NCBI GenBank assembly: GCA_003568945.1 | Contig: BDIP01000012.1 | Span: 1-48,186, forward strand | Direction of reading: 5' to 3' | Source of the DNA: Kipferlia bialata | Lineage: Eukaryota | DNA length: 48,186 nucleotides | Shown here: positions 143-36,646 of the stretch, piece by piece | Position numbering within the stretch: the stretch's first letter is position 1 | Layout: the number at the start of each line of letters is the position of its first letter | Made by a program: the position numbers and the translations under genes | The notes under the pieces: generated by a model | Databases searched by the model: none | Seen by the model: only the letters and a program-made list of their open reading frames with translations | What the model was told of the DNA's origin: nothing

Positions 143-204
143 CTAGTCCCGACATTGATGACTGCACTCTGCTCATGGGCATCGGGGGCTCAGCAAGGGA
201 GGGC
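143..204 (-). CDS. Most 3' complete exon in window (PSLAEPPMPMSRVQSSMSGL)
   Basis: ctaaccctcttag| acceptor and |gtatg donor; phase matches the upstream exon at 452-513; a donor-side echo lies at ~26-67. Confidence 0.7.
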
Positions 205-3200
205 CTAAGAGGGTTAGTATATAAATATATATATAGGAAGTAGCCAGTGTCAGCGCGGTTAGTTAGCCATCCGAGGTCCTGGACTTGTGTCCCATACATA
301 CACGAAATATTGTATAATACAATATGAATACATATTCTTTGTAGTAAATACCTAGCATTCCCCGGCCCTGTCTCGATATCTCAGAACAGATGCCCATACA
401 CTCATGATACATACAGTGTGTATATACACATACTTATGTGTTATTGAATACCTAGCAATCCCTGTCTGTGTATCCCTTGTCAGAAGGGGGGCATCGTAGA
501 TATGGGTGGCATCCTAAAGTGAGGACATACGTACACAACAAAGAGAGAGAGAGAGAGAGCTCCTTGACATCCAAATCAGATGATCACAAACACATACCTG
601 TCCGTAGTGGACTAGGAACTTGCTCAGTGTCGTTATCTGCCTGAGGGTGAGATACCATTATATATTTAGTAATAATGCAATTATATAGTATTGTATTCAC
701 AGAATGTATCTATATGGTGTAAAATAGTATAAAATGAGAGAAGAACGTGTATAGTATATACTATTGCCGTGATCTGCCTGAGGGGTGAGATGAAGAGAGA
801 ATGTGTATAATATCATGTGCACATAAAGTACATTGTTATTCTACTTTTTTTTTTCTAAATTTTTCTTTTTTTTTTTTCTACATATTCTACATATATATTG
901 CATATACTATACACATTCTATCTCTCTCCCCTCTCTCCTATATATATATATGTATATATGTGTGTATACATACACTCATACCTTATGCATAGATCCACCC
1001 CGACCTGTGCCTCTAAGGCTGATGAGTGTTGTCTCTCTCTCCTATATATACTATACACTAAGTATTAGTGCTATACATTACCTGATACACAGGTCCACCT
1101 CGACCTGTGCCTCCAGGGCAGATGAGTGTTCTCTCTCTCTCTCCGTATATATATANNNNNNNNNNNNNNNNNNNNNNNNNNNNNNNNNNNNNNNNNNNNN
1201 NNNNNNNNNNNNNNNNTATATAAGTCTCTATATCTATACCTTATGCACAAGTCCACCCCGACCTGTGCCTCTAAGGCTGATGAGTGTGTACAGGCCAGGT
1301 GGTACTGTCTCTGCCCGAAGGAGAGGACCATGCCTGTCGAGTAAGAATATATGGATAGAAATAATTACATGTATATACATGTGTATGTATATATATATCT
1401 AGCCGAAGGAGACCATGCAGTTCACATAAGAAAGGAGAAGAGGAATCATGTATCAATATTGAACCCAAATGGTCAGAGACAAATAGTATACATTTGAACT
1501 GCTTTTCACTAATGTATATAGTAAGGCTTAATGTATACCTGACAGTATCCGCCTCATCCTTAAGCTAAAGGCAGGCGACACAAATGAGGGTATGGCAGGG
1601 GATGAGGATGACATATATATATATATATATATAGGGAATGTTGAATATACCCGATAGTATCCGCCTCATCCTTAAGCTAAACGCAGGCGACACAAATGAG
1701 GGTATGGCAGGGGACGAGGATGACATGAAGTGGGGGGTGGGGGACAGGGCCTCAAGGGTCACGGGGGGGATCTTCTCTGAAGGGTTAGAATCGTATCTAG
1801 TATCTAGTATCTACTCTATACTTATCATGATATTATTTAGTGAGTATCTCCAGGATCACGGGGAAATATCATCTCTGGAGGGCGTAAGAACCATAACCAT
1901 AAACGATACATAAATAAATGAGTGGAGGGTGTACTACGCCGCTATAATAGAGTACCAGTATTGGCAAAAATGATACGTGGAAAACACGTACCAAACGCCT
2001 TGGTCACAGGATGGACTTCCTCCGGCATTGCCAGCATGTACTGGCACTTCTTGAGATAGAAGTTCATGAAGGTCTGGTTGCCCTTGGAGTCGCCCCTATG
2101 GATTAGTCAAAAGATCACAACGAAACATGTTGAACATAGATTATTAATTGAAAACCATAAGAATATCGATAGAAGTTCATGAAGGTCTGGTTGCCCTTGG
2201 AGTCGCCCCTTAGAGTCAGTGAAAAGTACTGACATGTATACATACATGTTATCATGAATAGCAAAGAATTATTCATCTCAAGACAATGTCACAACTGACA
2301 CATATGCGTCCCTGACTCACAAGCAGTACAACCGTCAAGTGCTATATACATACTAGTATACAAATATATGAGTCAACATTAATTGTAGTACGCATGATAC
2401 ATACCTGACTCTGCGCTGCACCATCAGCACAATCTTCATTGGCTGCTGGAGCAAGGGGTCAGTCACCTCCAGGTGCTTGACCTGGTGCCAGTGCAGAATG
2501 GCTATGCTGATATAAGATTACATATATATATTACACGATATATATAGTAGAAATATAGTATATACTAAAGATAGTATATTATGCTTGATCTGGTGCCAGT
2601 GAATGGCGATGCTATTGTTAGGACCCACCCAAATATGTATAAAGAGTACTATAGAAGAGGAAGGAAGAATGCAGAATTAGAGAGAAACGGAGAATGATAG
2701 AGATAGAGAGAGAGCGCACTTCCAGTATAGAAAGATATTAGACATTTAGTGTGGAGAGAGAGAGAGAGAGAGAGGGAGAGAAAGAGCGCACCGATCTGGG
2801 GACATGCCGTGGTACAGGCCAAAGACAGGCTGGTGACCGGCCTAAGGGTGAGATACAATACCACATACACGATATACTATGTACACATTTTGTCCCATAC
2901 GAGTACTATATCTATATACGTATACATTAAACCTGCCAAAGACAGGCTGGGGACCGGCCTAGAAGTGAGAGACATAGGTATACTGTATACCGAAGGTATA
3001 CACAATAATCATGGGTGACTGAAGTATTATATAAGGTTGTGTGAAAGTTGATATCAAACATCCATATGAAGTGCACATACCTCCTTGATGCTCCTGATCA
3101 AGTGCAACTCCACGTCTGTGTTGAGGGGTGCCATCACTATGGCAAACACACTCTTCCTAGTACTAGCTAACACGTTGGAAACCAGCTCTCGGATGTCAAT

Positions 3201-6200
3201 CTAGGGTGAGAACTACGCGATCCATATTGGATGGATATTTACGCGATACCCTCTCTCACCTGCTCCTGTGGGATCTTTAGCGCCAGAGCGGTCCTTGCCA
3301 CCTCCTCGTCATGGGCCGCAAAGGCCTGGGTGTCAGCAATAACAGTCAATAGTATACAGAGTAGCATATATAGTAGCATATAGTAACATAGTAAGGCCTG
3401 GGTGTCAGTAGTACTGCAGATGCGCAGTATATATATATAGTACTGAAGACGTATGAGGAGCAAACAGCAGTGAGACAGGAGTATATACACATACAAATAC
3501 TAGTTTCAATACCTTGTGTGCACCCTCTAGTCCAGTTGCAGAGGACAGGGCACGGATCCAGCTACCAATCTGACGGTTAGTGGTCTAGTATAGAGTGAAT
3601 ATACACAAGTAGGTCTACAGTGGTGCAAACATGTAACAGTTACTAACCGATATCAGTGCCCCTGGGTGGTTGAGAGTGGCCAGGGCACCTATGTGGAGCT
3701 GAATGGTCCTATTGATTAGATAGTGTATATATAGAGAGAGAAACAGAGGGAGAGTGAGTGGCCAGAGCACCAATACTACTAGCAGCATAGTCCAAATATG
3801 TGAGGGTGTAGAGAGAGTATACATGTGGCATACCTGTCTGTAATGACTGACCCACAGCAGTCTGGCAGCCTGAGCTTCTTCTTGACCTTTCTACCTGGTA
3901 TCAGCATCTGTATCATGATACTCGACTATACTATATGAATCAATATGATTAATGGTTATGTACTATTTTGATACTGACCTGCCAGTATCGCATCCCTGAT
4001 AATGGTATAAGTATCATATAAACAGATATCAAAAAGAGTATATAATAATGATACTTATATGATACAATAGCATATATAATACTATGACACTGACCTGCCA
4101 GTATCGCATCCCTGTTGGGGTTGTTGCCAAGGAGGGACGAGAGCAGGGAGGTGCCTAGGGTGAGTGTAGGTAGTAAAAGCACAGGGAACTAGTTAACTGG
4201 TATTCAGTGAAACAGTGACTGAGGACATATATATATTGAGGAGGGACGAGAGCAGGGAGGTGCCTGGTGTCAGCATATGTATAGGAATAAGTATATTGGT
4301 ATATAGTGACATAGTGACTGAGGGGAGGTATATATAGGACTTCTGCATCATCAATATGTGAACGCAACTGCCCTATACAGGTATCTAAAGATTCCACCAA
4401 ACCAAGGAGGACGTGTCTAAATAGAGAGGTATATATGTCTATATACCTGCATCTAGGTCTGTACACACTAGAATGGCATCGGCAAAGGCTGCGTCGGTGC
4501 TCACCATGCCCTGAGTGGATTAGTCATATATACATATATATATGTATACTGGGCAGTTGGCCTCCAGTACTACGACAGTACAGTAGTATAGAGTAATACG
4601 TATACAATATATATATATATATACATTTGCACTATACCTCCACCAGTCCCTCATATGCTGGACAGTTGGCCTCCAGCACCGATGCTCTCTTGAAGGCAGC
4701 AGCTAGACCAGGGAACATGGCCATCTGGGAGGGCCTAGGGTGTAAGTTTCAATACTATACTGTATAGATACTGTATATACATATTATTATATACCTATAT
4801 ATGTATACATATATGAATAGATAGACCAGGGAACATGGCCATCTGGGAGGGCCTAGGGTATGAGTAACATAGTATANNNNNNNNNNNNNNNNNNNNNNNN
4901 NNNNNNNNNNNNNNNNNNNNNNNNNNNNNNNNNNNNNNNNNNNNNNNNNNNNNNNNNNNNNNNNNNNNAATCATATATGTATAGGTAGACCAGGGAACAT
5001 GGCCATCTGGGAGGGCCTAGGGTGTAAGTATCAATACAATAATTGTACTAAAGGTATATATATATAAATACTTATATATATTGGTGTATATATGGATAGA
5101 TAGACCTGGGAACATGGCCATCTGGGAGGGCCTAGGGTATGAGTATCAACACGAAATGAGTACAATGGGTATATATATAATGGTGTATATATGTATAGGT
5201 AGACCGGGGAACATGGCCATCTGGGAGGGCCTAGGGTATTAATGTATCATATATATATTGCAATTCATATAGTAATATATAGTAAGAGAGCTGTGTTCCA
5301 GAGCGATGCTGTAAACAATTGTGAATAATTGCAAATGTCAATATATTATGAACCCGGGCATATCATGTATATCTACATATACAAGCATGATATACCTGTG
5401 CTGGAAATGAAGTCATGTGAATATACTAACACTTATACTAGACCATCTAGTGTGTACCTGTGCTCCAGTGCGATGTTGTATATCCTCTCCACCACCTTGG
5501 GATCGGCAAGGGACGCCATACGCTCAAACTGATTGGACATGGCAAGCTACACGGTTAGGGGATGTATAGAAGGTATCGTGTAGGATTGAGAGTGTACTGC
5601 TATCGTGTAGGAAAGATAACATTTAGATATCGCGTAGGAATGAGAGTACGTACCGCGACCACTGCCACTGCCCTGGGGTCTATGGCCTTGGAGGACACCT
5701 GCTGGATCCAGTTGAGCAGGATGGTAAGGAGCTAGAGGGTTAGCCAGGATACTTATGAATGTAAATTATGGAAAGAGACTATATAGTATAGTATATGCAA
5801 TATCTATGTACAACACACTCACGTGTCCCTGCCCTATGTCAAAGAGTGCCCTTGGGTTGGCTGCACTAGTAATGAGTCTGTCGCATGTCTTGTAGTACAG
5901 TCTGCGCACAGTCTCCTGAGGGTGGGTATAAATGGTATACTCTATATATATACATAGTGTAGTATATATAGTCGCATATTTATATGTAGTGTAGAATGTC
6001 TTGTAGAATAGCATACGAACAGTCTCCTGATGGTGAGTATATACAGAAGTATAGTGAAATCAGTATTTGACTTTTAGTTGATTGACTACCTGGTTCAGCG
6101 AGGAGTAACCACTTGTCTCCATATATAGAAATATATGTAAATAGAGTATAGGATACACTATATATAGTAAACTTGACACTATATTGACACACCTGATTGA

Positions 6201-7847
6201 GTGACGAGTACCCACTAGTCTCGACATGCTCCTTGATGACATCAGACAGCAGACTCAGCTGCTTCTCAGCAGTACCAGCACCTGAGGGTAAGTAGTCTCT
6301 CTCTCCCGCATCTCAATGATTGAATGGAAGTGTAATCACTATAATCCAAAAGATAATGATACACTTGTATGTATACGAAAGCAATGGTATATATACTGTC
6401 ATTACCTCTCATCACAGGGTTGGGGAACCGCAAGGCAGTGCCAGCTATACATAATATATATATATATATACCATATATAAAATATAAACATTATTATAAT
6501 GGTATATTCAAAATACCTCTCATGACAGGGTTAGGGAATCGCAGGGCTGTCCCAGCTATGGTGTTGATACCAGCTGTCAGACCATAGTCTATGCCGGGCT
6601 TGCTCCACATGTTGGCAAGGGTCTTGTAGGAGGCAACGACGTCCTTGGCTAGACGCAGCATGTGGCCTTAGACGTTAGGGAATACGATGCACTGTATATT
6701 ACACATTACTATATACTATATACTCTATAATGATAAGAATAGTATACACCGTCCTTGGCAAGGCAGAGCATGTGGGCTGTTAGGTAAGTGCATACCCAAT
6801 GACTGCTTATACATGAAGTGATTACCTGTTCCCCGAATTAGTGCAGTGGACGCAGTGGCAGAGGGTGTTGTACTAATCATCCTTGCAGTCAGAGCTCTGA
6901 TATCTGTCCAGTACCTGTCCCTCAGCACTGCACAGGCCTCCTCTGCCTCTGCTGCCTGGGTATTAGATTAAGACATTACCATAACATGCAACTATATATA
7001 CTACTATTTCCTATACTAAGACATAGAATAATCGCGTAGTAATACGTCAAACTCACCTGCCGAAGCGGGCCAGTGTCGGACCCAGTGGCAGCGTCCTCAA
7101 ATACCTAGAGTGAGATAATGATATATGCACAGGCAACGTGTATAGTCTATATATCACTGATACAGAGAATCAGCTAAAAGAGAAGGATATCTTGATGTGT
7201 TGAGACACTGGCCATGCGTCAATAGATACTGAACACACTTAGATCTGCAATTGTGTGTCTAAAAGAATACAAATTTACACAGATGCATATACCTTGAGCA
7301 GCTGCACTGTGAGTGTTGGTCTCACTGGCAGACAGTCAAAGAGGGTGCAGCTCCGGACATAGTTGTCTGGGGTTAGAGGTATATAGACATACTGAATATA
7401 TATATATATGTAACAATATACACCAATACATCAAATAGTTGTCTGGGGGGTCAGTAGTACCTAGAGAAGGATACGTTCACATATATCCACACAGGATAAT
7501 GTACATAGAGTATATCGATTATGTACCTGGGTTGTCGCATATTGCTATGGCCATCTTGTGGATATAGTACAGCTGCATCTTGTGGATGGGCTGCTTGAGT
7601 CTGCAGGCATAGCGACCATCCTGAAGGTCAGCATTCCAGAGAGTAAGAAACCAATATTTGGAACCGCTGGGCAAACCTAAGAACAATCATTGTACATACA
7701 CTATACTATCCATACCTGGAACGTCAGGACCTGCCCTGCCCTGGTGGTCTGTTCACGGAAGTAGTCGGTGAGGAGGTTCTGGAGTGAGAATGAACATCAA
7801 CACTTCAAAGCACTGCGGTTATTAAACTTCACGTTATACTACATATG

Positions 7848-7893
<46 letters not shown>

Positions 7894-10800
7894 TACATAT
7901 ATACCTTGAAGTGGATGCCCTCTGGGGATGACACCACCCCTCCCGCTATGATGATGGGGTAGCCACCGTCTAGGGCCTGGGATCAGTGGACTAAATGAAT
8001 AGCTATATTTACAAAACAGAAGTATTGTTTAATATACACTATGTATATACCCAACGTCTAGGGTCTGGCATCAGTGGACTATGAATATACAGGGCGCAAT
8101 TATACTTTTCTACTCAAGAATATATATGCATACATACACTATAGAGATATCCTCTCACCTTCACCACCAGTGGGTAGAACACATGGCCCGGGACATTGAT
8201 GGGTTGATATATCTACAATTGACACTATATACACTATACATTATGGTATATATACACTATACAATATAGTACATATACTACAAACCTTCACCACTAATGG
8301 GTAGAACACATGGCCCGGGACATCGATAGGTACCACAGTGATGTTGGTGCGCTTGTACGCCGCAGCTAGCACTCTGGCGTTCTCAACCTGGCATAAGCTC
8401 ATACATGTGTTTATCATATGAATAATACATACAAGGTATTCAAGAATGAAATTGTGATAATCTAATTATCGTCCTAACCTTAGTGTTTGACGCCTTGAGC
8501 CCCTCCAGTAGACCAACATACCACAGCAACACACACTGCACAACCTGGGTATTAAGGGGGTAGGGGGGGGGAGGAATAGAGAGAGAGAGAGAGAGAGAGA
8601 GAGAAGGAGAGAGAAAGAACACACTACATACCTGCACACTATCTCTGTCCAGGTATGCATATATACTATACGCCATGTGTATATACTATTTACCATGTAT
8701 ATATATTACATACCTGCACACTATCCCTGTCCAGGTATGCATATATACTATACGCCATGTGTATATAGTATTAACCATGTATATGTATTACATACCTGCA
8801 CACTATCTCTGTCCAGGTATGGTATGCACCCTGGGAAGTGCACTAGAGAGTGGCACAGTCTGACACAGGAGAGCAGGGCAGAGTCTCTAGGGTGTGAGTA
8901 ATATATATCTATATATCAGTATACAATATATACATACTATACATATACTATATATATACAAGTGGCACAGTCTGACACAGGAGAGCAGGGCAGAGTCCCT
9001 GGCAGGTGAGAATAGTATATATATATATATCAGTATACTATATACAAATACTACACATATACTGTATATACTAGTGGCACAGTCTGACACAGGAGAGCAG
9101 GGCAGAGTCCCTGGGGTGAGGCTTTGTTCTTCCATGTGTATGTATATCCACACACACACACACACACACACACACCCATATATATATGTATATATACTAT
9201 ATAGTGGCACAGTCTGACACAGGAGAGCAGGGCAGAGTCTCTGGGGGGTGAGAGTAATATATATCTATATATATCAGTATACAATATATAAATACTATAC
9301 ATATACTATATATATACAAGTGGCACAGTCTGACACAGGTCAGTAGTGCAGAATCCCTGGGGGGTGAGGCACTATATACATTCCCTTTCGAACACGTACA
9401 ATCGGAAATCTCTCATTCATACTAGAGCTCCATAGCAGCATATTGGTATTATCACTATAACCGGAGACCTCTGATCGGACGGAGGATGAGTATATAAACC
9501 CATACCTGGGTGGCAGGGCCCCGGTCATCAGCCACAGGAAGGGCTTGGGCTGGGGGATACCCTGATAGGGTGAGAATTAGACCAAGTATATACTAATACA
9601 GTAAAGATAGCCTAAGTAGTAAGGGTGAGCAGCAGAGGTGAGATACTGAAAGTACAATACAAACTCAGAGACTAAGTACCACACATGTACCTTGAACATG
9701 AAGTGTCTACTATTACAAATATTTGTCTCCTCTCTCGTTATACTTATATATAGTACAATATATACCACGTCGGTCTATGTATATATACGTCTCTCAACAA
9801 GAATATATTTGTATAGTCATGTTGTACATTTGCCAATGTACCTTGAACATGAAGTAGTATGTGTTGGCCTGGGACACTGTCACAAGGGACGAGGACAGCG
9901 AGACCTGGAGTGAGAAGTGTATATATAGTATATATACTGCATAGTATACATAATATAAATAATATATAATATATACAGTATACATATAGTGTATGGCACT
10001 GTGACCAGGGACGAGGACAGGGAGACCTGGGGGTTAGTACATATATACTCTGTATATAGTATGTATAATATACATAATATACATAGAATACATGTAGTGT
10101 ATGTGCCACTGTGACAAGGGACGAGGACAGCGAGACCTGAGAAGTTAGGATATACATATATAATATAGTATTTATATATATCCTATAGACTACATACACA
10201 CATGTATTCATATAAATACTACAGTGCCACGGTGACAAGGGACGAATCAAGCGAGACCAGGGAGTAGGACATATAATCCAAATACTATACAAAATATGAA
10301 GATATATATACAGTACTGTCCCTATATATACCTTTGTCATGTCCTCTATGCCACAGAAGGGCTCTCTATATATGTACTCTATACACTATACTATACCATA
10401 CATTCCATATATACATACTATATACTGTATATATACCTTCGTCATGTCCTCTATGCCGCAGAAGGGCTCTCTATATACTATACCATACCATTCAAACTAT
10501 ACATACTATACACTGTATACACACCTTTGTCATGTCCTCTATGCCACAGAAGGACTCCAGCACACCCCTCATGCTCTGGAACTGGGGGTGAGACACTTTA
10601 GACACATGATACATATATAAATATATATATATACCATATACTGAAAATAGTACTGGAACAGAGTACCAATAGTATATATTTATACATACCTCATGCTCTG
10701 GAACTGGGGGTGAGATGGGTATACATATCATACTATATTATATATATATATATCATACTAATACATAATAATAACCTAGTAAACCTAGTAAAAGCACACC

Positions 10801-13800
10801 CCTCATACTCTGGAACTGGGGGTCAGACAAGTATGCATACTATACAGTACACTAACACCACATTAATACAAACACATATCTATCACTATTACTTCTGACA
10901 CGCATATACATCACATATAAATTAATACTGTATTTGTATATATGTATACCTGAGGCTCTGTGCCTGCAATAGAATTCTATATAGAACAGTCATACTAACA
11001 ATATATTGAATACTGCAATATATGAATATACAAATATATCCACTGTATACCTGTGGCTCTGTGCCTGCATGCTGCCAGAAGGGCTCAGTAGAGAATCCCA
11101 TACATAATAATATAGGTACTGTAACTATATATATATATATTCATATATACTATTTAATATATACTAGTCTATATACCTGGGGTTCTGTGCCTGCATGCTG
11201 CCAGAAGGGCTCGGTGGCTGTGAAGAGAAGGGCCACATTAGAGCCCCTGGGAATGAGAGGAATGCAATATCCATTCTACCATAGTAGTCTACAATGCTAC
11301 AATATATATTGTAGAACTTGAACACAAGCCTAGGCCTAATACACTAGAATGCGTTTACACAATGATACCTGAACAACAGCCTCCCAAGCTCCTCCGGGTC
11401 CTGTATCGATGCAGGCATCAGGACAGAGACACTCTCCCTGAGGTCAGTATCGTAATATCCTAACCCTATTTATGTATATATATCTGACACTGATGATATA
11501 TACAAATATCATTATACATACAAATAGTCAGTCATAGATCATTATACATATATATAGTCAGTGAAGTTGGTCTCAGCACAGAGACACTCTCCCTACGGTC
11601 AGAGAAGGGGATAGTAATATATATATGATGCAATAGTTGTACCAGTAAAGTTTACTTACCTAAGGTCATCTACGTAGTTGCATATGGCCCCATCTGTGCT
11701 GTCTAAGCATGCCTCATGCTTCTCAATCAGGGGCAGGAGCTTGTTCAGCACTGCTGCCTCGCTCCTTGACCTATTGTTACTATTTATTACTATATATATA
11801 TATAATTATTAGTAATTCTTTATAATACATTATATTATGCAATGAATTACAATTCATTGTCATATATTACTATATATTACTATAATACCTCTGGATGAAG
11901 AGACGGGACGTGCTGACACTATAGGATATGAACTGGTGCAGCTCAATGCCACGGTCGGGGTAGAGTCTGATATGAGTATAGAGAGACACACCTACTAACG
12001 TACTATATATACACATAATTGGATATAGAGCAGCTCAATGCCACGGTCGGGGTAGAGCCTGATATGAGTATAGAGTGAATCTCTACATCTGTACAATATA
12101 TATACGAGTATGAATGTACATATACGAGTATATATACACATGAACTGGTGCAGCTCAATGCCACGGTCAGGGTAGAGCCTAGGATGAGTACATATAGAAT
12201 CATATATACATATGTAATAGTATTATACTAATATATATATATGAGTATATATCATAAAAACTGGTGCAGCTCAATGCCACGGTCGGGGTAGAGCCTACTG
12301 TGAGTATAGAGAGAATCTCTACATCTGTACAATGTATATACGAGTATGTATATACATGAACATATGAACTGGTGCAGCTCAATGCCACGGTCAGGATAGA
12401 GTCTAGGATAAGCGTTTATTTGACAGACAGTAACAACATATTGTGCAATGTACCAGTATTGAATTATTCACTGACCTCATGATTGCCTGAAACTGTGCAG
12501 TGCACATATACCATTATCCAAGTACACTCATATTCATGTACTACAAGACATATATATATATAGTATATAGTATATAAATATCTATATATCTGAATATAGT
12601 ACTGACCTCATGATTGCCTGGAACTGTGCCGTGCATACCATGAACGTACACTTGTCATCCATAACTATGTATATACAGTATATATAGTATATATGGTGTA
12701 TATATATCCATCTGAAAGTATACTCTCCAAGTACCTCATGATCGCCTGGAACTGAGCAGTGCATATCTTGATGAATGTGTTGAACACCTCCTTGGGCTCG
12801 TTGGTGTTGTACCGGTTGGTCAGGTACCGCAGGGCACTGGTATCAGTATCAGTATATATATATACATATATATACTGAGACTATTCAAGTATCAGTATCA
12901 GTATCTATCATCTATGCTGATATACTAGTCCGGTATTAGTATCACTATCAGTATCAGTACCAGTAAGGTATCAGTATCAGTATCTATATGTACATGTATA
13001 TATACATATACACTGATACTAGTCAGATACCCACCTTGGTGTGGATGTCATTATTAGTATCAGTATAGATAGTATATAATAGTATATATATTGTACCTAG
13101 GTGTTGCAGTCATGAGGTCAGACACACCAGAGGGGTATGACATATTGACACTAGTCAGGTGTCAGTATCTATATATATACATAAATATATGTATATATAC
13201 TGATACTATTCAGGTACCTAGGTGTTGCAGTCATCAGGTCAGACACACCAGAGGGATAACTCATATTGACCCCTATGCACAGACGGGGTGGGGGTGGACT
13301 GCATGTGGTCACAATTACTGGGGTGAGGCACTCTCTAAACTACGCGATCGTAATAATTACGCGATATGCATATACCTGCGAGGTGCTGCGCCATCTTCAT
13401 AACAAGGGTAGCTGCATCTGGCTGCGGCAGAGAGTACTTCTCTCCCAGGGACAGGTAGATCTGGCCAAGGGCTGCCCTGACAATAAGGGTTTCGGGGGGG
13501 AGAGAGAGAGATAGAGCGTACAAGTGTTCACTGAAATATACATATATAATGAGTCCTTACGGATATTCACAATGTAATATAAACCACTATACTTAGATTA
13601 TACCTTGAGAACACAGGTGGCACTAGGCCCTTCCCGAATGCCACAAGACACTGCCTGAGGAGGGGGGACCGGCTGAGCATGTCACCTGGGGTGGTGAGGG
13701 GTATATATATATATCCTATATATTATATATATCATATATGATATACTAATATCATATATGATATACAAGAGCAAACAGGGCACACATACACACATGTGTG

Positions 13801-16634
13801 TACCTGGAATGTGCAGCAACACTCTGCTGAATAGTGTCCTCTCCGATGAGAACTTGGCGTGGATCTGGGTGTTGACCTCTCCAGCTGGGAAGACCTGGGG
13901 TTAGAAGGGTATATTCATACACTAGTAGCAACATACACAACTATACTACTTGGGCAAGAATACAGATGGAGGTACCACCATGTCTATGTCCTCCCCGTCA
14001 TTCCCCTCACAATAGTATAGGTATACAACAGTATATAATTGTAAATACACATAGGTATACTCACCTTGAATGGGGGTACCACCATGTCTATGTCCTCCCC
14101 GTCCTTCCTGTCTATACAGGATAGTATACACGAACTAGTGTATCAATATATATTTATATATATATATATACATAGATATGCACCTTGAATGGTGGCACCA
14201 CCATGTCGATATCCTCCCCATCCTTCCTGTCAGACAGGGGCAGCACAAGGCCAGAGGGAAGGCCACAGGCCACCAGGACAGCGAATCTACATGTGAGTAT
14301 ACACACAATATAGAAGTATGTATATATATGCGTATATCTAGACAAGGCCAGAGGGAAGGCCACATGCTACAAGCACAGCAAACCTATTAATCAGTACATA
14401 GAGTAGTAACACAGAGTATAGAGTAACTATCGAGAGGAAAGAAGAATATTAATGTGGGTATTTGAGCAGCACACCTCACAAATGCCGCAATCTTCTGGTC
14501 GAGGGTGGGCAGGGCAAGCGCGGCCCAGATGGCCTGGGGGTGAGGTATACTTCCCTCTCAATCTCTCCGGCTCTCAATCGATACATATATATGCACATGC
14601 GCCTTCAACCGTCAATACATACCTCCTGCATGGGTGACTCGTGTGCCTGTGACACCCCTAGGCCATGGAGGAGGAGGTTGAGGTCAAGGACAAGCCTGAG
14701 TTGAGTCTTATCGGGATACAATACTGAGATATTATAATATATGAATTAAGATATATATACATATATACATATATATGGAGGAAGAGGTTGAGGTCATTGA
14801 CAAGCCTAAGGTGAGCCTCTTCGGGACATGGTAATACACTATAGTCCATACAATACCTATGCAGGTATCTCTCGTGGTCAGAATGACGCACTGACTCTCT
14901 ATACTCATTCAAATATAAATACATATATAGTATCCCTCACCTAGGCAAGTAACGTTCATGGTCACTGCCAAAGAATGATGCGCTGGCCTCTGACACTGAC
15001 GACTGGGACTCACACTGGGACTGGTCAAGGGACATGGCACTTCGAAGGCTACCGTGTGACCTAGAGATCAGTTAGTAATATACCGCATTATATAATAATA
15101 TATTGAGCCACCCATATACAGTTCATATGGTCCGTCTCCTTATATTTGTACATGTTACACAATTGTGTGAGTAGTACCTGCGGCAATCGAGACTGCCTGT
15201 CTCCCACGCATCCTGTCTCTCTCTCTCTATATATATATGTGTGTGTGTGTGTGTGAGCAGTTACCTGTGGCTATCGAGACTGCCTGTCTCCCATGCGTCC
15301 TGTCTAGACCTAGACGAGGACATCCCCTTGGACTCCCTGCTACTGTCAACAGAGGAGAGGAGCACCTGCTGGCCCATGGCCTTCTGCCTAATTCTACGCG
15401 ATTGCTTCGCGTAGCCCGCAGAAGCGATCTGACTCAGGGTCACGTTGTAGGCTAGGACTTGGAAGAGGAGCTTGGCGGCCTTGGAGACCTATGGTCAGTA
15501 TCAGCAGAAGTTTTGATACATGATGTATCTGTGACATACACACACATATATACAAGCCTCTGTCTGATCGTGGTTGATGAATGACATGGTCATGGTGGGG
15601 ACAGTCATAAATATATATATATAAATATATATACTAATGTATCTAATATATTCTAGTACATATATATATATATATATATATACATACCTCTGTCTGGTCG
15701 TGGTTGATGAATGACATGGTCATGGTGGGGACAGTCAGCTGTCGGAGGCCACTCCCAATGCCTGATGATAAGTGATATATACAGGTGATAACGTCACTGT
15801 ACTGATATACTATACTATACCAATACACATATGAATCCATGCCTATATCTTCCACCGTCTGTGCCACTGTGTTGTTGACAGCCATATACACATACACAGT
15901 ATATATATATGCCCACTGTAAACTATTATCCATTAATATATATATATATATATACCAATACTCTACCTATGTCCTCCGCCGTCTGTGCCACTGTGTTGTT
16001 GACAGCCATCCAGCACTCAGTATATACACCCATTATACTATTAGCCATATATTTATATATATATATATATCAATAGTTACCTATATCCTCGACCGTCTGT
16101 GCCACTGTGTTGTTGACAGCCATCCAGCACTCAGTCTGGACAGCAGTGGAGAGGAGAGTAGGCACAATCTAGGGTGAGGATAGAGAATACATATATATAT
16201 ACATAGTATAGAGAAATATATGTAAGTATATCCAACACTCAGTCTGGACAGCGGTGCTCAACAAGGTGGGGACAATCTAGCATCAGGGAATATATGGTAT
16301 ATGCATGTATATATCATGGTATATGTATTACAATGTATGTATATCCAGCACTCAGTCTGGACAGCGGTGGATAGCAGGGTGGGGACAATCTAGGATCAGG
16401 GAATATATATATGGAGAGAGTATAGTATATGTATAGTATACATATAGAGAGAGAGGGAGAGTATGTGAATATCCAGCACTCAGTCTGCGATGCAGTACTC
16501 AATAGAGTGGGGACAATCTAGGATCAGTATATGGAGTATATACACTTCATAATAGATACATGCAATATAACATATACTCGCATACACCCACCTCTGGGTG
16601 TTCCACTTCCAGGTATATATCAATATACACACAC

Positions 16635-16670
<36 letters not shown>

Positions 16671-17018
16671 CCCCACATCAAGGTGGTCCAGCACCCCCCA
16701 GTAGTTTATCTTGTAGCCATAATTGACATATATATTGAGTAGTACAATACCTCTGGATGTTCCACATCTAAGTGGTCCAGCACATCCTTGAGAGGATACT
16801 GACTGTGCAAGAGGGGGGCAAAACAGTCACTGACGAAGTAATAAGACTGAGGTAAGAGATAGAGAGAAAATGAACGACTATATATAGTATAATGTATAAC
16901 GTATATACTGTACAGTATGTATGACTGTGCAAGAGGGGGGCAAAGCAGTCTGACACGAAATAGTATGACTGGGGTGAGGGTATATATGCATTGTATATAT
17001 AGTATATGTTTATGGCAA

Positions 17019-17051
<33 letters not shown>

Positions 17052-18891
17052 TAAATATATGACTGTGCAACAGAGGCGCAAAGCAGTCACTGACGAAGTA
17101 GTATGACTGGGGTAAGACGCAGACACTATATACATTATGAGAGTATATACTATATATAAATATCCCCCTTATTACCTTAGGCGCTGGTGCCCCAGGTCCA
17201 CTGTGCAGTGCGGTTAGGATGTCAGACCAGATACGCCTCTCATCGGGGAGCACAGTGATCCTGATGGCTTAGGACGCAATGTATATTGAATGTATCCCAT
17301 ATATATCCGATATACAGTTCATATTCTCTCATCTGATCCTGATGGCTTAGTATTCTGTCAATACATATTGCACATAAGGTATACTATATATAATCTATAC
17401 TGTCAACTCTACCTCAGTATCTCCTCCCTGCCACTTATCATATTACTATCTCAAATTTACTGACTGACGCTTGGTATCCAATACATATATACAATTTTGG
17501 TATCAATAATGCAGACTCCCTACCTCAGTATCTCCTCCCTGCCACTGACCAGGTGCCCGAGTCCTGCCTGGGGTCAGTTTAGACCTATGTATATACATAT
17601 ATGAATGTACATACATAAACACACGCATATTAATCAATGTATACATATAACTGACCAGATGCCCTAGTGCTGCCCGATGTCAGTGTCAGTGTCAGTGATA
17701 TGATATATATATGTCTATATATATAGATAGAGAGAGAGAGAGATAGAGAGACATGCCTTGAACATTGGTGCCAGACACTTGAGGGCCAGTACCAGTATCA
17801 GATGTATGTATGTATATATATATATATAGATACATATATATATATATATAGATACATATATATATATATACATATATATATGTATATATCTGATATATCT
17901 ACATATGTTTACATGCCTTGAACATGGGTGCCAGACACTTAAGTGCCTCCTTCTTCTCATCGGAGGAGAAGAGCTTCCCTGATATCCTCATTCCTGACAT
18001 TAAAATATGTACACACACACACACACATATATGTATATACATATATATATATACATATAACTGTTCTCATCGGAGGAGAAGAGCCGCCCTGAGATGCGCA
18101 TACCTGACGTTACAATAGGTTTAGATATATAGTACTATACTGTGGTAGGATATACGTGGAGAAGATACCACCACACCTGACACAAACAGGTTTGTGGCTG
18201 TGATGTAGTACATTCTGGGTATATATATGTATATACTAATATGCGTGTGTGTGTATACAAATAATCCATACTGAGGTACCTGACACAAACAGGTTTGTGG
18301 CTGTGATGTAGTACATTCTGGGGTCCTTCTTGGTAGCCAGTAGGCCCAGTCTCCGAACACTGTCTAAGATACGCAGGGGTGACATATCCAGGAAGTCACA
18401 CATAGCCAGCAGTACATTGAGCAATGCGCCTCTATAGGCAGGTGGGCTCTTGGGGTCCATGGGCATGGTGGCCAGGAGACTCTCCACTAGGCCAATGTCT
18501 ATAAGCTGGTCGGCGTTGAGAGTGACAGCGAAGGAGGCTATGCTGCGTACCAGGGGTGTCTTTGTGGATAGGTCTAGGTGTGTCTCTGCTAGGAGAGTGA
18601 TGCCCTCAAGTCTAGCGGGGGAGAAGGCACTGGCAAGTCCATCATTCTGATGTGTAAGTGAAAGCATATAAAATTACTTAGGAATATTTAGTAGTGATAT
18701 TACTTGGGAAGATGAGGAGAAGACACTGGGTTGGAACAATACCTGGTATATATATATAGAGAGAGAGCGAGAGAGAGAGAGTACCTGCTCAGTAGGCAGG
18801 CTCTTGGACCTAATGTCCCCCATTGACCAAATATCACTGCCAGTGTTGAGGTTGACAGCTGAGGCTGTACGAGATGCAAGGGTTCTGACTG

Positions 18892-18926
<35 letters not shown>

Positions 18927-21900
18927 AATGCTCAGGTTGACAGCTGAGGCTGTACGAGATGCAAGGGTCCTGAAAGTGAACTAGTAAACAAATACAAGCA
19001 TGAATATACATGCTAGTAAAATTGTACCTTATCACAGGGTGAGACAAGAGCTCCTCCACCGAGTGTACTTCATCCTGCAGACATATATATACATAGTGAC
19101 ACACATATATATGGAAGTACCTTATCACAGGATGCGAAAGCAGTTCCTCCACCGAGTGTACTTCATCCTGCAGACATGCCACCAGGCCATTGTATATATA
19201 TATATACATATATATATACACATATATATGATAGTTAGATACCTAATGACAGGATGAGACAGCAACTCTTCGACAGAGTGTACTTCATCCTGCAGACATG
19301 CCACCAGGCCATTGGCGAAGAGGGGCACGATGGACCCATCTGCTGCCCTGGTGACATGGTTGGACAGGCCATCAAGCCTAGGGTTAGTATATGAGTATAC
19401 CATATACATATATATACAGAGAGACCATCAAGCCTGAATATCAGTAGAATACTGTATGGTAACGTATATAGTGATATGTGTATTGTATGGATATCCATCT
19501 GCTGCCCTGGTGACATGGTTGGACAGGCCATCTAATCTATATATCAGTATACTGTATGGTATTATAGACCATCTAACCTGTATATCAGTGGATGGCAGTA
19601 TACTATATATGTATATATACATATGTAGTAATTAATATACATACCTTGAGTATAATAGTATTATTAATAATGAAAATAGCCTGGAATGAGATTGCATATA
19701 TTTATACTATTCATAACCTGAGTATATGAATATGTATATATGTATACATACCTCCCCCCACAGACACACCTATCACAGTCTGGTTCCAATATAGCAGTAC
19801 AACCATATACAATTCATATATAGAGAGTGTATCTGTATTTGTATATATATATGTATATATATGCATACCAAGAAAGATATACCTGGAATGAGATTGCATA
19901 TATGTATACAATATATACAATTCATAACCTGAGTATATGAATATGTACATGTTTATGTATATAATACCTTCCACCGACAGATACATCTGTCACTGTCTGG
20001 ATGTATGATGGCAAGTGAAGCATTGTGGGAGATACATTAATACATATACTGTGTGTACAATTACCTTCCACCGACAGATACATCTGTCACTGTCTGGATG
20101 TATGAGTATAGTATCAGTATTACACACAGAGAGATATACCTTCCCCCGACAGATACATCTGTCACTGTCTGTATGTATGATGGCAGCAGGTTGGTGGCTG
20201 CGGCACAGGCCCAGCTCTTGCCAACACTCCTGGGGGTGAAATGAGGGTGTAGGGTGAGAGGGGGGGGGGAGAGAGTGGGCATGAGGGCATAGGGGGAGAC
20301 GGATAAGATGAAACTATTGTTGATCTTCAGTAGAGAGGGAGGGAGAGAGAGAGAGCGCCGTACCCAGTGGAGTTGAAACTATTGTTGATCTTCAGTAGAG
20401 AGGGAGGGAGAGAGAGAGAGAGTCATACCTAGTTGAGTTTATGATACATGGCACTCCGAATGTCATGCATGCTGCCATGATATGGGCAAAGGCACGGTTG
20501 GTGGTGGTGATGACAGGGGCGATGCTCCATCTACGGGTCAGAGGCGGGAGAGAGAGGTGGGGGGAGAACGAGAGAGAGAGAGAGAGTGTAGATATATTAG
20601 TATATATATATATATATATACACCTTGGGTGTGTCATGAAGAAGTCGTCAGTCTCCATGGGGTCTCTAAGAGTGTATGTCTCCAGTTCACAGGTGGATGC
20701 GTTGTATCTCAGAGGCTCGTATGCACATGGGTCCAGGCCCTCGGGGAAGCACCGCTCCAGGGTCTGCTCCTGGGGTTAGGGATACTACTAATAGTACAAC
20801 TACGCTTAGGAATACTATATATATACATCCCGCAGATAGTATATAGTATACAATATACTACAGAACTGTATTTAAGGAAACACCGCTCCAGGGTCTGCTC
20901 CTGGGGTTGAAGATACATATACAACACTACACATATAGATAAATATAAATGTATATACCTATATAGTGTGTAGAATATACAATACCGGTCGAGGATCTGC
21001 TGCTGGGGATAGTAATTACTAGTACAATAGCTACTATATATAGTATATACCGAACCCACCTTCAGCATAGCAAACCCAGGGTGCACCGCCCACAGAGACC
21101 TCAGAGGAATATATACTATGCAGTATTTACGATACATGTACAATATATAGTGTATACTGAACCCACCTTCAGCATAGCAAAGCCTGGGTGCACGGCCCTC
21201 AGGGACCTCAGAGCATGCTCCTGGGAGGTTAGGGGTAGAGGGTTAATAGCACGTACTCATGCCTTCATATATACATATATACCATGATACATACCTGTGT
21301 GGTGATTCCCAGCATGTGCTCATACTCGCCGAGAGTCAATAACTATATATACATATATATACATTTACATACACAATCATATCTTCTGTAACATATACTC
21401 GTATTATATATAAATACTTACACAAACATATCTTCTATAACCTGTACTATGTATTCACCTGTGTAGTAATACCCAGCATGTGCTCATACTCCCCACCAAA
21501 GTCAATATATAGATGCCCAGCATGTGCTCATACTCGCCCCCAAATGCTGCCTGTACAGCAGTGAGCAGAGTGTATGAGGTGTACACAGTGGCAAACCCGA
21601 CCATAAACAGTGCGATTGTGTGTCCAAGGGGTGAGTTATCTCCATATGATGTGAAGAAGTCGGTGGAAGGGACAATGCTTAGGACTGGACCGACGTTGGG
21701 AAGACCAAAGAGTGTAGGCTCCACGTGTGGTTGGGATGCATGGATTACGCCCTCCTTGGCACGGGAGATGTCAATGTCAACCTTGTGTTATAGTATAGTA
21801 TATATAGTACAGTACTATAGTATGACATATACAGAATACATGATGACGCCCTCCTTGGCACGGGAGATGTCAATGTCAACCTGGGGTGTAAGGTCATATA

Positions 21901-23128
21901 ATACGGGTTTATACTATGTAGATATGTATGTCTTTACATATATGTATGTGTGTGTGAATATGGACTATTGTATACCTTTGTGGGTGTCAGTGTCATGATG
22001 CCCTGCTCATATATCTATCAATCTATATCGATATATACATGTGGATATATATGGATAGATGTATATGAAATATATATGAATGAAGATACCTTGGTGGGTG
22101 TCAGTGTCATGATACCCTGCTCAGACAGGAGCCACCACATAGCTGCCTGGGGTAAGCGTGGACATCGTGTAGAAAGGCAGACATTCCGTTGAAATACACA
22201 TATTTTACCTGTACGAAGGATCCCTCGCAGGAGCTCAGATTCACATCGAGAACCTCCAAGAAACGGCCAATCACACCGAAGAAGTACTTGACGGAGTCCT
22301 GAGGTATTAGATCATTACACAAACAACTACCAATACTCACAAAGGTAAATAAAAGAAGATACTGAGATGCATCTATATACATGCATTGATACCTGGCTGT
22401 TGAGGTCTGGCTGTTCCCCACTATAAATATATATATATATTTATAACAAATACACTGTTCTAATAGTAACAATACCTGGCTGTTGAGGTCTGGTTCCACC
22501 CCAGTGTGCAGGGCCAGTGACTGTCTGAATGCACCTGGTGTCATATATAGCTTGACAGTATGGATAAACTAGTTACTATACAAAGATTAATACATACCTG
22601 GTGTATACACCATGCCATAGTTAACCACCATGGTATGCAGCTTGAAGTAGGTGTGCGAGGGGAGACCCGTGCTGATGTAGACAGTACGCATAGGTGGGGC
22701 AGCCTTGCTCAGCATAGCTAGTCTCAGGTGATTCTCCTCCCCATAACCCCCTAATGCCTGACCCTTGGGGTCGAAGGACATGTCGAGCAGCATCCACTCA
22801 CGCTCCTCCCCACTTCCCTTGGCCCTATGCTTGAGAGAGCGCTGTGCCGCTATGGGGTCACGGTGGAAGGAGGTGGATGCGCCGCATAGCTTGGCTGCCT
22901 CCTCTACAATAGCCTTCGCAGTATGGAGACAGGGTGTGTACACCCACATAGACTCACCGGGGGCGTCGAGGAGAGCCGATAGCCACTTGGTGGCGTATAC
23001 GCCCTCACCTGTCAGTATGCCCTGTCCCTCACCAAAGTCAGGGGGTGGCTCATCCCTCTCATTGTCAATGGAGGAGCCAAAGGCGGCGCTGACAGCGCCT
23101 ACTGTTAGTACAACATATACAAACATGC

Positions 23129-23159
<31 letters not shown>

Positions 23160-23344
23160 TGGGGCTCATCCCTCTCATTGTCGATGGAGGAGCCAAAGGC
23201 GGCAGAGACTGCGCCTACTGTTAGTATATCATATGCATAATATAATATATAGATATATATAGAGAGAGAGAGATGGGGCTCATCTCTCTCATTGTCAATG
23301 GAGGAGCCGAAGGCGGCAGAGACTGCGCCTGGGGTTAGCCATAC

Positions 23345-23382
<38 letters not shown>

Positions 23383-23425
23383 GAGCCAAAGGCGGCGCTG
23401 ACAGCACCTAGTGTTAGTACAACAT

Positions 23426-23458
<33 letters not shown>

Positions 23459-26019
23459 AAGAGAGAGATGGGGGGAGTCTACCAGTATACAATGTATATA
23501 TATATACGTAGTACCTAGGACACCCTCCCTCTCGTATATACGTATATATACATACCTAGTACTCCCTCTCTCTCGTATGGGTTGAAGGACATGGCCATGT
23601 ACTTGTACACAGCAGTCTCGGGGGAGTCTCCCATGTCGATATCATCGTGTGACTCAGAGTCCTCGTCTGCTACGCGATCACCATCATCGCCCTTGTATCT
23701 AATAGCCATGGCAATGGCAACTGGGGGTGAGAGAGGAAGAGAGAGAGAGAGAGAGAACTCTGGTATCTGATGGCCATGGCAATGGCAACTGGGGGTGAGA
23801 GAAAGAGGGAGAGAGAGAGAGAGAGAGAGCTCTTGTATCTGATGGCCATGGCTATGGCAACTGGAGGTAAGAGAGAAGGGGATATAGAGAGAGAGGGAGA
23901 AGGAGAGTCAGACAGAGAGAGGGAACTATGAGACTCACCATCCGACGGGTCTAAGAATATGGATGGGTCTGCCTCTGCATATGTGGTTCTGAGGGCAAGG
24001 CAGGGCTTTCCAGTGACCTTGGGGATTAGTATCCTACTATATACATATGTATATTAATGTACTAGAAAAACTCTATATATACGTTCACATAGGTACCTTG
24101 GGGATGAACCTCAGCTTGTCAGGTGGCGGACGGACGTCAATGTATCTGGAGTGAGTACCATTATACATACATGAACTGTAGCATACATAATCTTGTGTTC
24201 CTTCCAGTCACATACTAGTAGATAGAATGCAATGTATACATAAGAGTTACTAGCATAGAACAAGTATAGTACAGTACAGTGTATCGATATACAAATATAC
24301 CTGATAGGTGTGTTTCTAGGCAAGTGGGGTGGCACAGCAAAGCTACCAGATGGCAGCACGGGTAGGAACAGGACCAGTCCACCTGAGGGTTAGTGCATAT
24401 GTAGTATATATATACATATACATATATAGGACCAGTCCACCTATGGTGTGCTCTGAGGCATGGGGGGTGGCAGAGCCCAGGGGGTTCCTGACAATGCAGA
24501 GATCGGAGTCAGCCACCTAGTGTGAGCCAGATAGAGAGAGAGAGAGAGAGAGGACATGGGGCGTGGCAGAGCCAAGGGGGTTCCCGACTATACAGAGACC
24601 GGAATCAGCAACCTGAGGGTTAGTGGTATGATCTATGTATACACAAATATATAAAAATATATAGGGAGAGAGAGAGAGAGATGGGGCTTGTCAGAGACAG
24701 AGGGTGACGATGCTGAGGTCAGAGTCTATGACCTCTGTTTGTGAATGAATGGTAAAGGTACGTACCTTAGAGTGTGGTGTATTGGGCCCACTTGCGTATG
24801 GCAGCTCTCCCCCTGCCTCCATCGTGTATGCTATGTCCATGATGACACTCAGATGGGCAGGGGAGGCATTCTCAGCACCAAGCAGATAGACAAGGTGTCC
24901 TAGGGTCATTGGAAGGAAGAATGGGGGATAATATATATATTCATATTTAGTATATATACAAATAGTTATGCTGAGGGGAGGCATTCTCAGCACCTAGGAG
25001 GTAGACAAGATGGCCTGGTATAATTGTATACAAGAGGCAGAAAACACGACACTCATATACTATATACATATGCTATATACATATACGTAATCAGACATTC
25101 TCGGCACCAAGGAGGTAGACTAGGTGGCCTGGGGTTAATCGGAAGTAGAACATAAGACTAAGTTGCCAATACACACTATTCATACCCTCTAACAGCATGT
25201 TTGATATGGCACATGCCATGGGCATCGGAGTATATACACATATACTGTGAATATAGAGATATATCCATACCTACAGTGATACCCTTAGCAACCAGTGCCC
25301 CCAGCTGTGCACTCGACCCATCGGTGTCAAGGAGGGGGGTCACCTGGTCTAGGTTCATAGAGGCAGCTGGGGGTGTTAGAGAGAGAGAGAGAGAGAGAGA
25401 GAGCTAGGTTCATAGAGGCAGCTAAAGTTAGTATACATTTTAGGAAGAACCAAAAGAGAATTGTATAGGTGTATCTAGCAAGGGTGTGACCTGGTCAAGG
25501 TTCATCTGGGCAGCTGAGGGGTTAGACAATGAGGTCTTAAGATAGTAATTACACCATGATATAGAGAGTACTATAAAGTATATCTATCTGCATCTAGGAG
25601 AGGAGTCACCTGGTCAAGGTTCAGAAAAGCGGCTGAAGGGGAGATAATGTACTGTAATACCTACACATACACACAATGTATGGTGAATATATACACCTTC
25701 CCGGTAGTTGAGTAGCTCTCTCTTCCAGTCAACATCTCTCTCTCTCCCTCTCTCCATATATATATGTGTATGTATATACATATATACCTTCACCGTAGTT
25801 AAACAGCTCCCGTGGGTTAACCCCTTCCATCCAGTCATGTACAGTGATATATATATATATATACATATATGTATACATATAAATACATAATTTTGTTATA
25901 TTAACACCAACCTTCACCGTAATTGAGTAGCTCTCCTAGGTTGACCCCTCCCATCCAGTCATGCACCACGTGTCTGTGATGTACACCTAGAGAGGAGAAG
26001 CAGAGAGGTGCCTAGGGTG

Positions 26020-26051
<32 letters not shown>

Positions 26052-33617: not shown

Positions 33618-33659
<42 letters not shown>

Positions 33660-35804: not shown

Positions 35805-35839
<35 letters not shown>

Positions 35840-36389: not shown

Positions 36390-36422
<33 letters not shown>

Positions 36423-36613: not shown

Positions 36614-36646
<33 letters not shown>

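What the first reader, a model, noticed from the sequence alone, without database searches (positions are those of the whole stretch)
9506..11970. Dynein-like protein apparently lacking the stalk and microtubule-binding domain
The segment RSRSEAAVLNKLL resembles the start of stalk CC1 (r.rl..GL.KL). GSNVALLFTATEPF resembles the end of CC2 (GD.LL.aa...Y.gpF). Only ~60 aa separate them, and W..GALP.RD follows ~70 aa later. In canonical dynein heavy chains this interval is roughly 300 aa of coiled coil plus MTBD. Inference: a non-motile structural or regulatory pseudo-dynein.
Basis: partly seen in the sequence, partly recalled or inferred. Interest (0 to 1): 0.7.

Follow-up and report, generated by a model that had tools for sequence, protein, structure and literature searches.

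The report
Stalkless non-motile dynein family in Kipferlia
This window holds a large spliced gene, one of at least eight copies in a free-living protist, whose product is predicted to be a dynein motor that has lost its microtubule-gripping stalk and most ATP-binding signatures, so it likely serves as a non-moving scaffold or regulator rather than a motor.

Summary
Confirmed. The interval lies in one minus-strand gene of about 136 exons (4,469+ aa) spanning the window; its C-terminal part is the public model KIPB_000121 of Kipferlia bialata. A spliced, RNA-like contig joins the stalk-slot exons directly, so no exon was missed. Seven paralogs share the short slot: 54-66 aa in 8 of 8, against 299-331 aa in 29 of 29 canonical dyneins. 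An AlphaFold model built without dynein sequences matches dynein AAA4-AAA5-AAA6 (Foldseek E 5e-9; VIA Z 12.4, 509 residues) and shows a confident three-helix stub where the stalk belongs. No canonical P-loop is conserved; AAA3 keeps S-x4-GK[ST] in 7 of 7. The AAA1-AAA3 model is low-confidence, and no relative was found outside Kipferlia. Best reading: a lineage-specific family of stalkless pseudo-dyneins, likely flagellar scaffolds or regulators; function is untested. Non-motile dyneins are known (DNAHX, DNHD1, class 12, DNAH12), so this is a new variant, not a new category. My paper searches and the scan's notes showed no earlier description.

The parts
143..47834 (-). Whole gene model: 136 exons, 4,469 aa, open at the 3' end (left edge of window); 5' part less certain
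   Evidence: Script model; 43% identical to paralog P0001 over model aa 115-4467
26656..33589 (-). Dynein linker region (DHC_N2-like); bounds approximate
   Evidence: hhalign probability 90.7 and 95.6 against 29 dyneins, reversed control 0.1; Pfam DHC_N2 in paralogs P0003 (E 2.7e-11, above cut-off), P0006 and P0001 (below cut-off)
23939..25366 (-). AAA1 slot, Walker A and B lost; about 52 aa present in paralogs are absent from the window between 25271 and 24899
   Evidence: By-eye alignment of 6 paralogs; low-confidence model; inferred
17913..20769 (-). AAA3 slot with conserved S-x4-GK[ST]W at about 20234-20214
   Evidence: 7 of 7 aligned family members; slot assignment by eye, not statistically significant
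12735..13894 (-). End of AAA4 large and AAA4 small domain
   Evidence: Model residues from about 200 align to dynein AAA4 end (yeast 2918, human 3095)
11889..11966 (-). Exon: start of the CC1-root helix
   Evidence: RNA-like contig loose end matches it; helix 258-294 in model
11660..11770 (-). Exon: CC1 root (SRSEAAVLNKLL) and turn of the stalk stub
   Evidence: Spliced join in X2; pLDDT 77-90
11369..11437 (-). Exon: cap helix of the stub, where about 250 aa of coiled coil and MTBD lie in canonical dyneins
   Evidence: Spliced joins on both sides; spacing
11177..11246 (-). Exon: CC2 root (GSNVALLFTATEPF)
   Evidence: Spliced join; helix 326-344; RG.N motif kept in paralogs
9842..10581 (-). Two exons (10581-10525, 9904-9842) completing the helical region before AAA5
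   Evidence: First exon's join shown by RNA loose end; second by paralog collinearity
7293..9561 (-). AAA5 large domain, starting at W..GALP
   Evidence: Model 408-611 aligns to dynein AAA5 (7mi8, Z 9.1) and to ClpA/ClpB AAA+ domains
6517..7104 (-). Shortened buttress, 74-76 aa against 89-92 aa
   Evidence: 7 of 7 family members that cover it; 29 dyneins; anchors set by eye; helices 632-663 and 681-700
1651..3200 (-). AAA6 slot
   Evidence: Alpha/beta domain in model 998-1112; dynein alignments reach only its start (about 1011-1079); assignment partly inferred from order

Best explanation
The window encodes a spliced protein of more than 4,400 aa, one of at least eight Kipferlia paralogs, that is predicted to be a dynein heavy chain whose stalk and microtubule-binding domain are cut back to a 54-66-residue helical stub, and that likely works as a non-motile scaffold or regulator in the flagellar apparatus. 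Shown: exon joins across the slot, the short spacing in all paralogs, the linker homology, and the absence of conserved canonical P-loops. Predicted: the AAA4-AAA5-AAA6 dynein fold, a stub of three helices, and packing of the stub against a shortened buttress. Inferred: with no stalk tip it cannot grip microtubules as dynein does, and with AAA1 Walker A and B gone it has no powerstroke cycle, so the ring would be a rigid body, perhaps holding a nucleotide at AAA3. It would dock through its tail and linker, and either fill a dynein-like slot on the axoneme or root cytoskeleton, or pair with a working dynein to hold, carry or place it. Probable ancestor: a single-headed inner-arm dynein (weak evidence).
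For: RNA-like contig joins the slot exons directly. Slot is 54-66 aa in 8 of 8 family members against 299-331 aa in 29 of 29 dyneins. Coiled-coil-like residues in the slot are 0-39 against 94-212 with my simple heptad score. Pfam finds DHC_N2 and no MT. AF2 model from family sequences only: Foldseek best E 5.3e-9, 41 of 44 listed rows titled dynein and the other 3 are long chains of axonemal structures; VIA Z 12.4, rmsd 5.7, 509 aligned, top 39 rows dynein; Foldseek-independent search of 48,161 chains puts five dyneins first, Z 9.4-10.5. Model 199-613 (415 aa) spans yeast 2918-3523 (606 aa). Four-helix-bundle matches spanning model 275-695 suggest stub and buttress pack together. P-loop pattern occurs 3-6 times in each of 29 dyneins and at no shared position in 9 family sequences. 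Open frames of 4,000-5,100 aa kept at 29-57% pairwise identity indicate long-term selection. Precedent for non-motile dyneins with ciliary roles: PMC11785096 and PMC11949491. Linker profile's best PDB hit is DNAH1, E 1.3e-5. My odds: about 0.9 for the stalkless non-motile dynein architecture, about 0.5-0.6 for a flagellar scaffold or regulator role.
Against: No sequence-profile support for any AAA module, stalk root or buttress; the only hint is a score of 13.2, probability 1.5, at the AAA4 end. The AAA1-AAA3 model has mean pLDDT 41.6, Foldseek E 3.7e-4 at best and Z under 8 with ambiguous register, so a six-module ring is not shown. The main model has mean pLDDT 63.8, pTM 0.46, and is poor in AAA4 large; its Z values are moderate and ClpB ties with dynein within about 1 Z, though over far fewer residues. 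Walker assignments are by eye. Nothing here bears on localisation or partners. Paralog gene models are public predictions, not RNA-checked here. The window's own copy lacks about 52 aa of AAA1.
Confidence: 0.62

Rival explanations
1. Same stalkless dynein-derived ring, but redeployed outside the flagellum as a cytoplasmic or cortical scaffold or nucleotide sensor (AAA3 binding ATP/ADP), in the manner of other stalkless six-AAA proteins such as midasin or RNF213.
For: Expansion to at least 8 copies at 29-57% identity; conserved AAA3 GK[ST] in 7 of 7; about 540-700 aa beyond AAA6 in paralogs; no localisation data.
Against: No MIDAS/VWA, RING or other effector family in full-length P0001 and P0006 (weak because Pfam misses the AAA modules too); the linker's nearest solved relatives are axonemal; described non-motile dyneins are ciliary.
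Confidence: 0.22
2. It is still an active machine: a slow ATPase at AAA3 or a rewired site, binding microtubules through the tail or a separately encoded binding subunit.
For: AAA3 keeps GK[ST] and usually one acidic residue at the Walker B slot; split dynein genes exist in fungi (PMC5100056).
Against: AAA1 Walker A and B absent in 6 of 6 paralogs; the stub is a closed hairpin within one transcript; no linker-swing cycle is expected without AAA1 hydrolysis (established knowledge).
Confidence: 0.07
3. Only the linker and the AAA4-AAA5 region are dynein-like; the protein is a chimera or the fold match is AlphaFold bias, and there was never a stalk here.
For: No profile-level match for the motor; poor N-half model.
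Against: No dynein was in the alignment given to AF2; spacing from linker to slot to AAA5 is collinear with dynein; even the poor N-half model ranks dyneins first.
Confidence: 0.05
4. Artefact: stalk exons were missed, lost in assembly or trans-spliced in, or the gene is a decaying pseudogene.
For: Introns are full of exon-end copies that mislead gene finders (15-aa error in P0010); one AAA1 segment is absent from the window; X2 is only guessed to be RNA and shares the sample with X1.
Against: Direct spliced joins; introns too small; seven paralogs on separate contigs agree; the contig's downstream length (4,256 nt = 2,644 in the model plus 537 codons, against 557 further aa in P0001) leaves no room for 750 nt more.
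Confidence: 0.04

Closest known systems
Canonical axonemal dynein heavy chains, nearest by linker DNAH1 / Chlamydomonas DHC2 (single-headed inner arm)
   Same: Size, linker (Pfam DHC_N2), order of AAA4 small domain, stalk roots, AAA5, buttress, AAA6; best PDB sequence hit DNAH1, E 1.3e-5.
   Different: Stalk and MTBD replaced by a 54-66-aa stub; buttress about 15 aa shorter; no conserved G-x4-GK[ST]; 7-13% identity in structural alignments, below profile detection.
DNAHX / dynein-X (sea urchin; preprint PMC11785096; abstract, passages and section 16 read)
   Same: Non-motile heavy chain with degenerate AAA1 and disabled microtubule binding; proposed regulator of other dyneins.
   Different: DNAHX keeps stalk and MTBD with insertions, keeps Walker B, derives from outer-arm alpha and is animal-specific; the Kipferlia proteins delete the stalk and form a multi-copy family.
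Class-12 dyneins (Kollmar 2016, PMC5100056; section 8 and passages read)
   Same: Described as having a stalk region with no typical microtubule-binding site and no coiled coil.
   Different: Holozoan class, still alignable as dynein; described as an unusual stalk domain. Its length and motifs were not compared here (supplements not read).
DNHD1 (class 11) and DNAH12 (PMC11949491, passages read)
   Same: DNHD1 is said to lack AAA1 Walker B residues; DNAH12 is said to lack the MTBD and to recruit DNAH1 and DNALI1.
   Different: Single genes in animals; DNAH12 is an ordinary classifiable inner-arm chain. I did not test its MTBD claim.
Midasin/Rea1 and RNF213 (recalled, not from a call)
   Same: Six-AAA single-chain rings without a stalk.
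   Different: They lack the dynein linker found here and keep active ATPase sites and effector domains; none detected here.

Membership tests
Dynein heavy chain (motile) | Linker domain before the AAA ring | tested here: met
   Pfam DHC_N2 in 3 of 3 long paralogs scanned, 1 above cut-off; hhalign probability 90.7-95.6 for the family including the window model
Dynein heavy chain (motile) | AAA4 small domain, AAA5 large and small domains in dynein arrangement | tested here: met
   Predicted model matches dynein over about 500-600 residues
Dynein heavy chain (motile) | Full ring of six AAA+ modules (AAA1-AAA3, AAA4 large, AAA6) | tested here: inconclusive
   N-half model pLDDT 41.6, dyneins rank first but Z under 8; no profile support; AAA6 only partly aligned
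Dynein heavy chain (motile) | Stalk: CC1, MTBD, CC2 (about 300 aa) | tested here: not met
   54-66 aa in 8 of 8; RNA joins; no Pfam MT, controls hit it at E 1e-44 or better
Dynein heavy chain (motile) | AAA1 Walker A (GPAGTGKT) and Walker B (DE) | tested here: not met
   No canonical P-loop anywhere at a shared position; slot read by eye in 6 of 6 paralogs has neither motif; the window's copy lacks most of this segment
Dynein heavy chain (motile) | Buttress hairpin in AAA5 | tested here: met
   Long helix pair in the model; shortened, 74-76 against 89-92 aa, anchors by eye
Dynein heavy chain (motile) | Microtubule-activated ATPase and minus-end motility | not testable with these tools
   Needs protein
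DNAHX subfamily | Stalk and MTBD retained with insertions | tested here: not met
   Stalk deleted here; DNAHX description
DNAHX subfamily | Descent from outer-arm alpha; heterodimer with another heavy chain | not tested
   No tree built; works-like comparison only
Class-12 dyneins | Stalk region without MTBD or coiled coil | tested here: met
   definition
Class-12 dyneins | Membership of the holozoan class-12 clade | not tested
   No class-12 sequence in hand; searches returned no non-Kipferlia relative
Midasin / RNF213 | MIDAS or RING/RZ effector domain, no dynein linker | tested here: inconclusive
   Pfam shows only DHC_N2 in P0001 and P0006, but Pfam is insensitive for this family; the C-terminal 550 aa were not folded

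The most novel reading that the evidence does not exclude
Kipferlia has turned a dynein into a multi-gene family of stalkless, ATPase-dead AAA+ rings that have left the motor business altogether and build a structure of their own, such as flagellar vanes, root fibres or a cortical lattice; stalk deletion and buttress shortening evolved together to lock the ring.
Probability: 0.25. Interest if true: 0.85.

Novelty: new variant of a known kind. Interest (0 to 1): 0.66.

Why it matters
It is a natural stalk-deletion experiment on the dynein ring, repeated in at least eight maintained paralogs. It makes testable what a dynein ring is good for without motility, how the buttress behaves without a stalk, and whether AAA3 is the last site to be kept. 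It also shows that dynein inventories built on Pfam or BLAST miss such proteins, since only a weak linker hit gives them away; similar families may be hidden in other protists. Non-motile dyneins were described from animals in the papers I read; this is an independent and more extreme case in a distant lineage.

Tried and rejected
No whole genome was held. Pfam on 23 single exons gave no dynein family. A word-based search with one exon found nothing among 1,503 candidates. An HMM from 29 dyneins (29 of 117 metagenome loci had ORFs long enough) did not hit six-frame fragments or the spliced model. Stalk-deleted and full HMMs scored no better than reversed controls. hhalign by domain, by sliding window and all-against-all was significant only for the linker. 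ESM Atlas gave no usable hit; phage tblastn gave no match. The AAA1-AAA3 fold was low-confidence. Midasin and RNF213 do not appear in the listed fold-search rows, but chains over 3,000 residues are partly left out, so this is not evidence. No relative outside Kipferlia was found by single-sequence searches (8 hits among 1.84 billion representatives, 6 Kipferlia and 2 weak unrelated; 3 of 1,247 and 5 of 7,990 candidates scored, all Kipferlia); no profile search of the whole library was run, so absence elsewhere is not shown. RNA was laid only on 11170-11780; other joins are unchecked. I could not test whether Kipferlia keeps a full set of ordinary dyneins. No complex prediction was run because no partner is known. 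Paper searches: Kipferlia + dynein, 6 papers (passages read in one, PMC6759080, no mention of this family); six accession numbers, 0 papers; stalkless and non-motile terms; the K. bialata genome paper has 0 occurrences of 'dynein' in its main text (supplements not read). The scan's notes had nothing on this genome and nothing holding all words.
Full report
Setting. The window is eukaryotic and intron-rich; no whole genome was held. A self-trained gene finder and curation by coordinates gave one minus-strand gene from about 47834 to 143: 136 exons, 4,469 aa without a stop, open at the left edge. Median exon 82 nt, median intron 226 nt. A public model, P0010 (KIPB_000121, partial, Kipferlia bialata), is 99% identical to its last 1,400 aa.

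The observation. VLNKLL to GSNVALL is 54 aa and GSNVALL to the W of W..GALP is 72 aa. In 29 dyneins taken from metagenome contigs (29 of 117 loci had a long enough ORF) the equivalent distances are 299-331 and 57-60 aa. Two of these controls hit all Pfam dynein families, MT included.

No exon was missed. In run X2, flagged 'RNA?' and from the same sample as DNA run X1, one 4,893-nt contig covers only the three exons in 11170-11780 and skips the 222-nt and 122-nt introns at GT-AG ends with no letters between. Its loose ends equal window 11891-11920 and 10552-10581, the neighbouring exons. This also shows that a 15-aa insertion in P0010 is an annotation error from exon-end copies. The slot introns hold open frames of at most 39 aa. 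Contigs drop rare isoforms, but the DNA has no room for one.

A family. phmmer with one exon against 1.84 billion representatives gave 8 hits, 6 from K. bialata; two word-based searches added 6 more, all K. bialata, one being the window's own model. Eight sequences cover the slot, the window's included; all have 54-66 aa there and align without a long insertion. Pairwise identity across the family is 29-57%. Full-length members are 4,500-5,100 aa. These are old, maintained paralogs. Their models are public predictions that I did not check against RNA. No relative was found elsewhere, by single-sequence searches only.

Is it dynein? By sequence, only the linker: Pfam DHC_N2 in P0003 (E 2.7e-11, above cut-off), P0006 and P0001 (below); hhalign probability 90.7-95.6; best PDB sequence hit DNAH1, E 1.3e-5. 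By structure: AlphaFold2 of P0010 151-1324 with eight paralogs and no dynein in the alignment (mean pLDDT 63.8, pTM 0.46) gave Foldseek matches at E down to 5.3e-9, 41 of 44 listed rows titled dynein. VIA-align gave Z 12.4, rmsd 5.7, 509 residues, top 39 rows dynein, and a search of 48,161 chains without Foldseek ranked five dyneins first (Z 9.4-10.5, 466-550 residues), ahead of single AAA+ domains that match model 410-612. The slot lies between the AAA4 small domain and this AAA5 domain: helices 258-294, 302-318 and 326-344 at pLDDT 71-90. Model 199-613 spans yeast dynein 2918-3523, 191 residues fewer. Matches to four-helix bundles across 275-695 suggest the stub packs on the buttress (inference), which is 74-76 aa against 89-92 (anchors by eye). 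The linker-to-AAA3 model of paralog P0011 was poor (pLDDT 41.6); dyneins rank first (E 3.7e-4, Z up to 7.8), which is weak support only.

Nucleotide sites. The pattern [AG]-x4-G[KR][STQ] occurs 3-6 times in each of 29 dyneins and at no shared place in 9 family sequences. In the AAA1 slot, read by eye, 6 of 6 paralogs lack GKT and DE. In the AAA3 slot 7 of 7 keep S-x4-GK[ST]W, so binding may persist there. The window's copy lacks about 52 aa of AAA1; a remnant of the missing exon's end with its donor lies at 25228-25187, which fits an assembly collapse but is untested.

How it most likely works. From established dynein mechanics, motion needs AAA1 hydrolysis, a linker swing, and stalk-buttress sliding to control the MTBD. 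The MTBD, most of the stalk and the AAA1 motifs are gone, so the protein should not step. The fold, linker and size are kept in eight copies, so the shape matters. I commit to a rigid dynein-shaped scaffold or regulator in the flagellar apparatus, docked by tail and linker, either filling a structural slot or holding and placing a working dynein. The architecture I put at about 0.9, the role at 0.5-0.6.

Comparison. DNAHX is non-motile with a degenerate AAA1 but keeps an insertion-laden stalk and MTBD, and is proposed to template inhibited dimers (PMC11785096; abstract, passages, section 16). The same paper says DNHD1 lacks AAA1 Walker B residues. Class-12 dyneins have a stalk region without binding site or coiled coil (PMC5100056; section 8 and passages; supplements not read). 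DNAH12 is reported to lack the MTBD and to recruit DNAH1 (PMC11949491; passages). So the kind is known. The Kipferlia proteins fail the tests for motile dynein and for DNAHX; class-12 membership was not tested and is unlikely on distribution. They work like these proteins at most.

Novelty. Searches for Kipferlia with dynein (6 papers), for six accessions (0 papers) and for stalkless or non-motile dyneins showed no description; the species' genome paper does not mention dynein in its main text. The library lacks most subscription papers. Verdict: real, a new variant of a known kind; interest 0.66.

Noticed in passing
window, introns throughout (e.g. 8960-9356, 10000-10136, 12140-12402): 62 of 135 introns carry near-copies of the start of the next exon or the end of the previous exon, usually with only one splice site; control with distant exons 0. 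These tandem part-copies mislead gene finders.
   Followed up: partly
window 24900-25270: About 52 aa of the AAA1 slot present in six paralogs are absent; only the end of the expected exon with its donor remains at 25228-25187. Assembly collapse or true deletion.
   Followed up: partly
window about 20214-20234: S-x4-GK[ST]W is kept in 7 of 7 family members at the AAA3 slot, the only P-loop remnant.
   Followed up: partly
window 143-16200 and beyond the left edge: The public model P0010 covers only the last 1,400 aa of the gene and has a false 15-aa insertion; the RNA-like contig runs about 1,600 nt past the window's end.
   Followed up: yes
window 32279-32911: Ten copies at 62-nt period, plus a partial one, of an exon end with its donor inside one intron.
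   Followed up: no
window 7527-7620: A short tandem duplication inside the exon adds 8 aa that paralogs lack.
   Followed up: no
window, acceptor sites: Most acceptors have a branch-point-like CTNAC a few bases before the AG; likeness to other fornicates is recalled.
   Followed up: no
window 33742-47645: The tail holds GA-microsatellite-derived ER runs and low-complexity inserts; no DHC_N1 hit in paralogs. The 5' end of the gene is uncertain.
   Followed up: no
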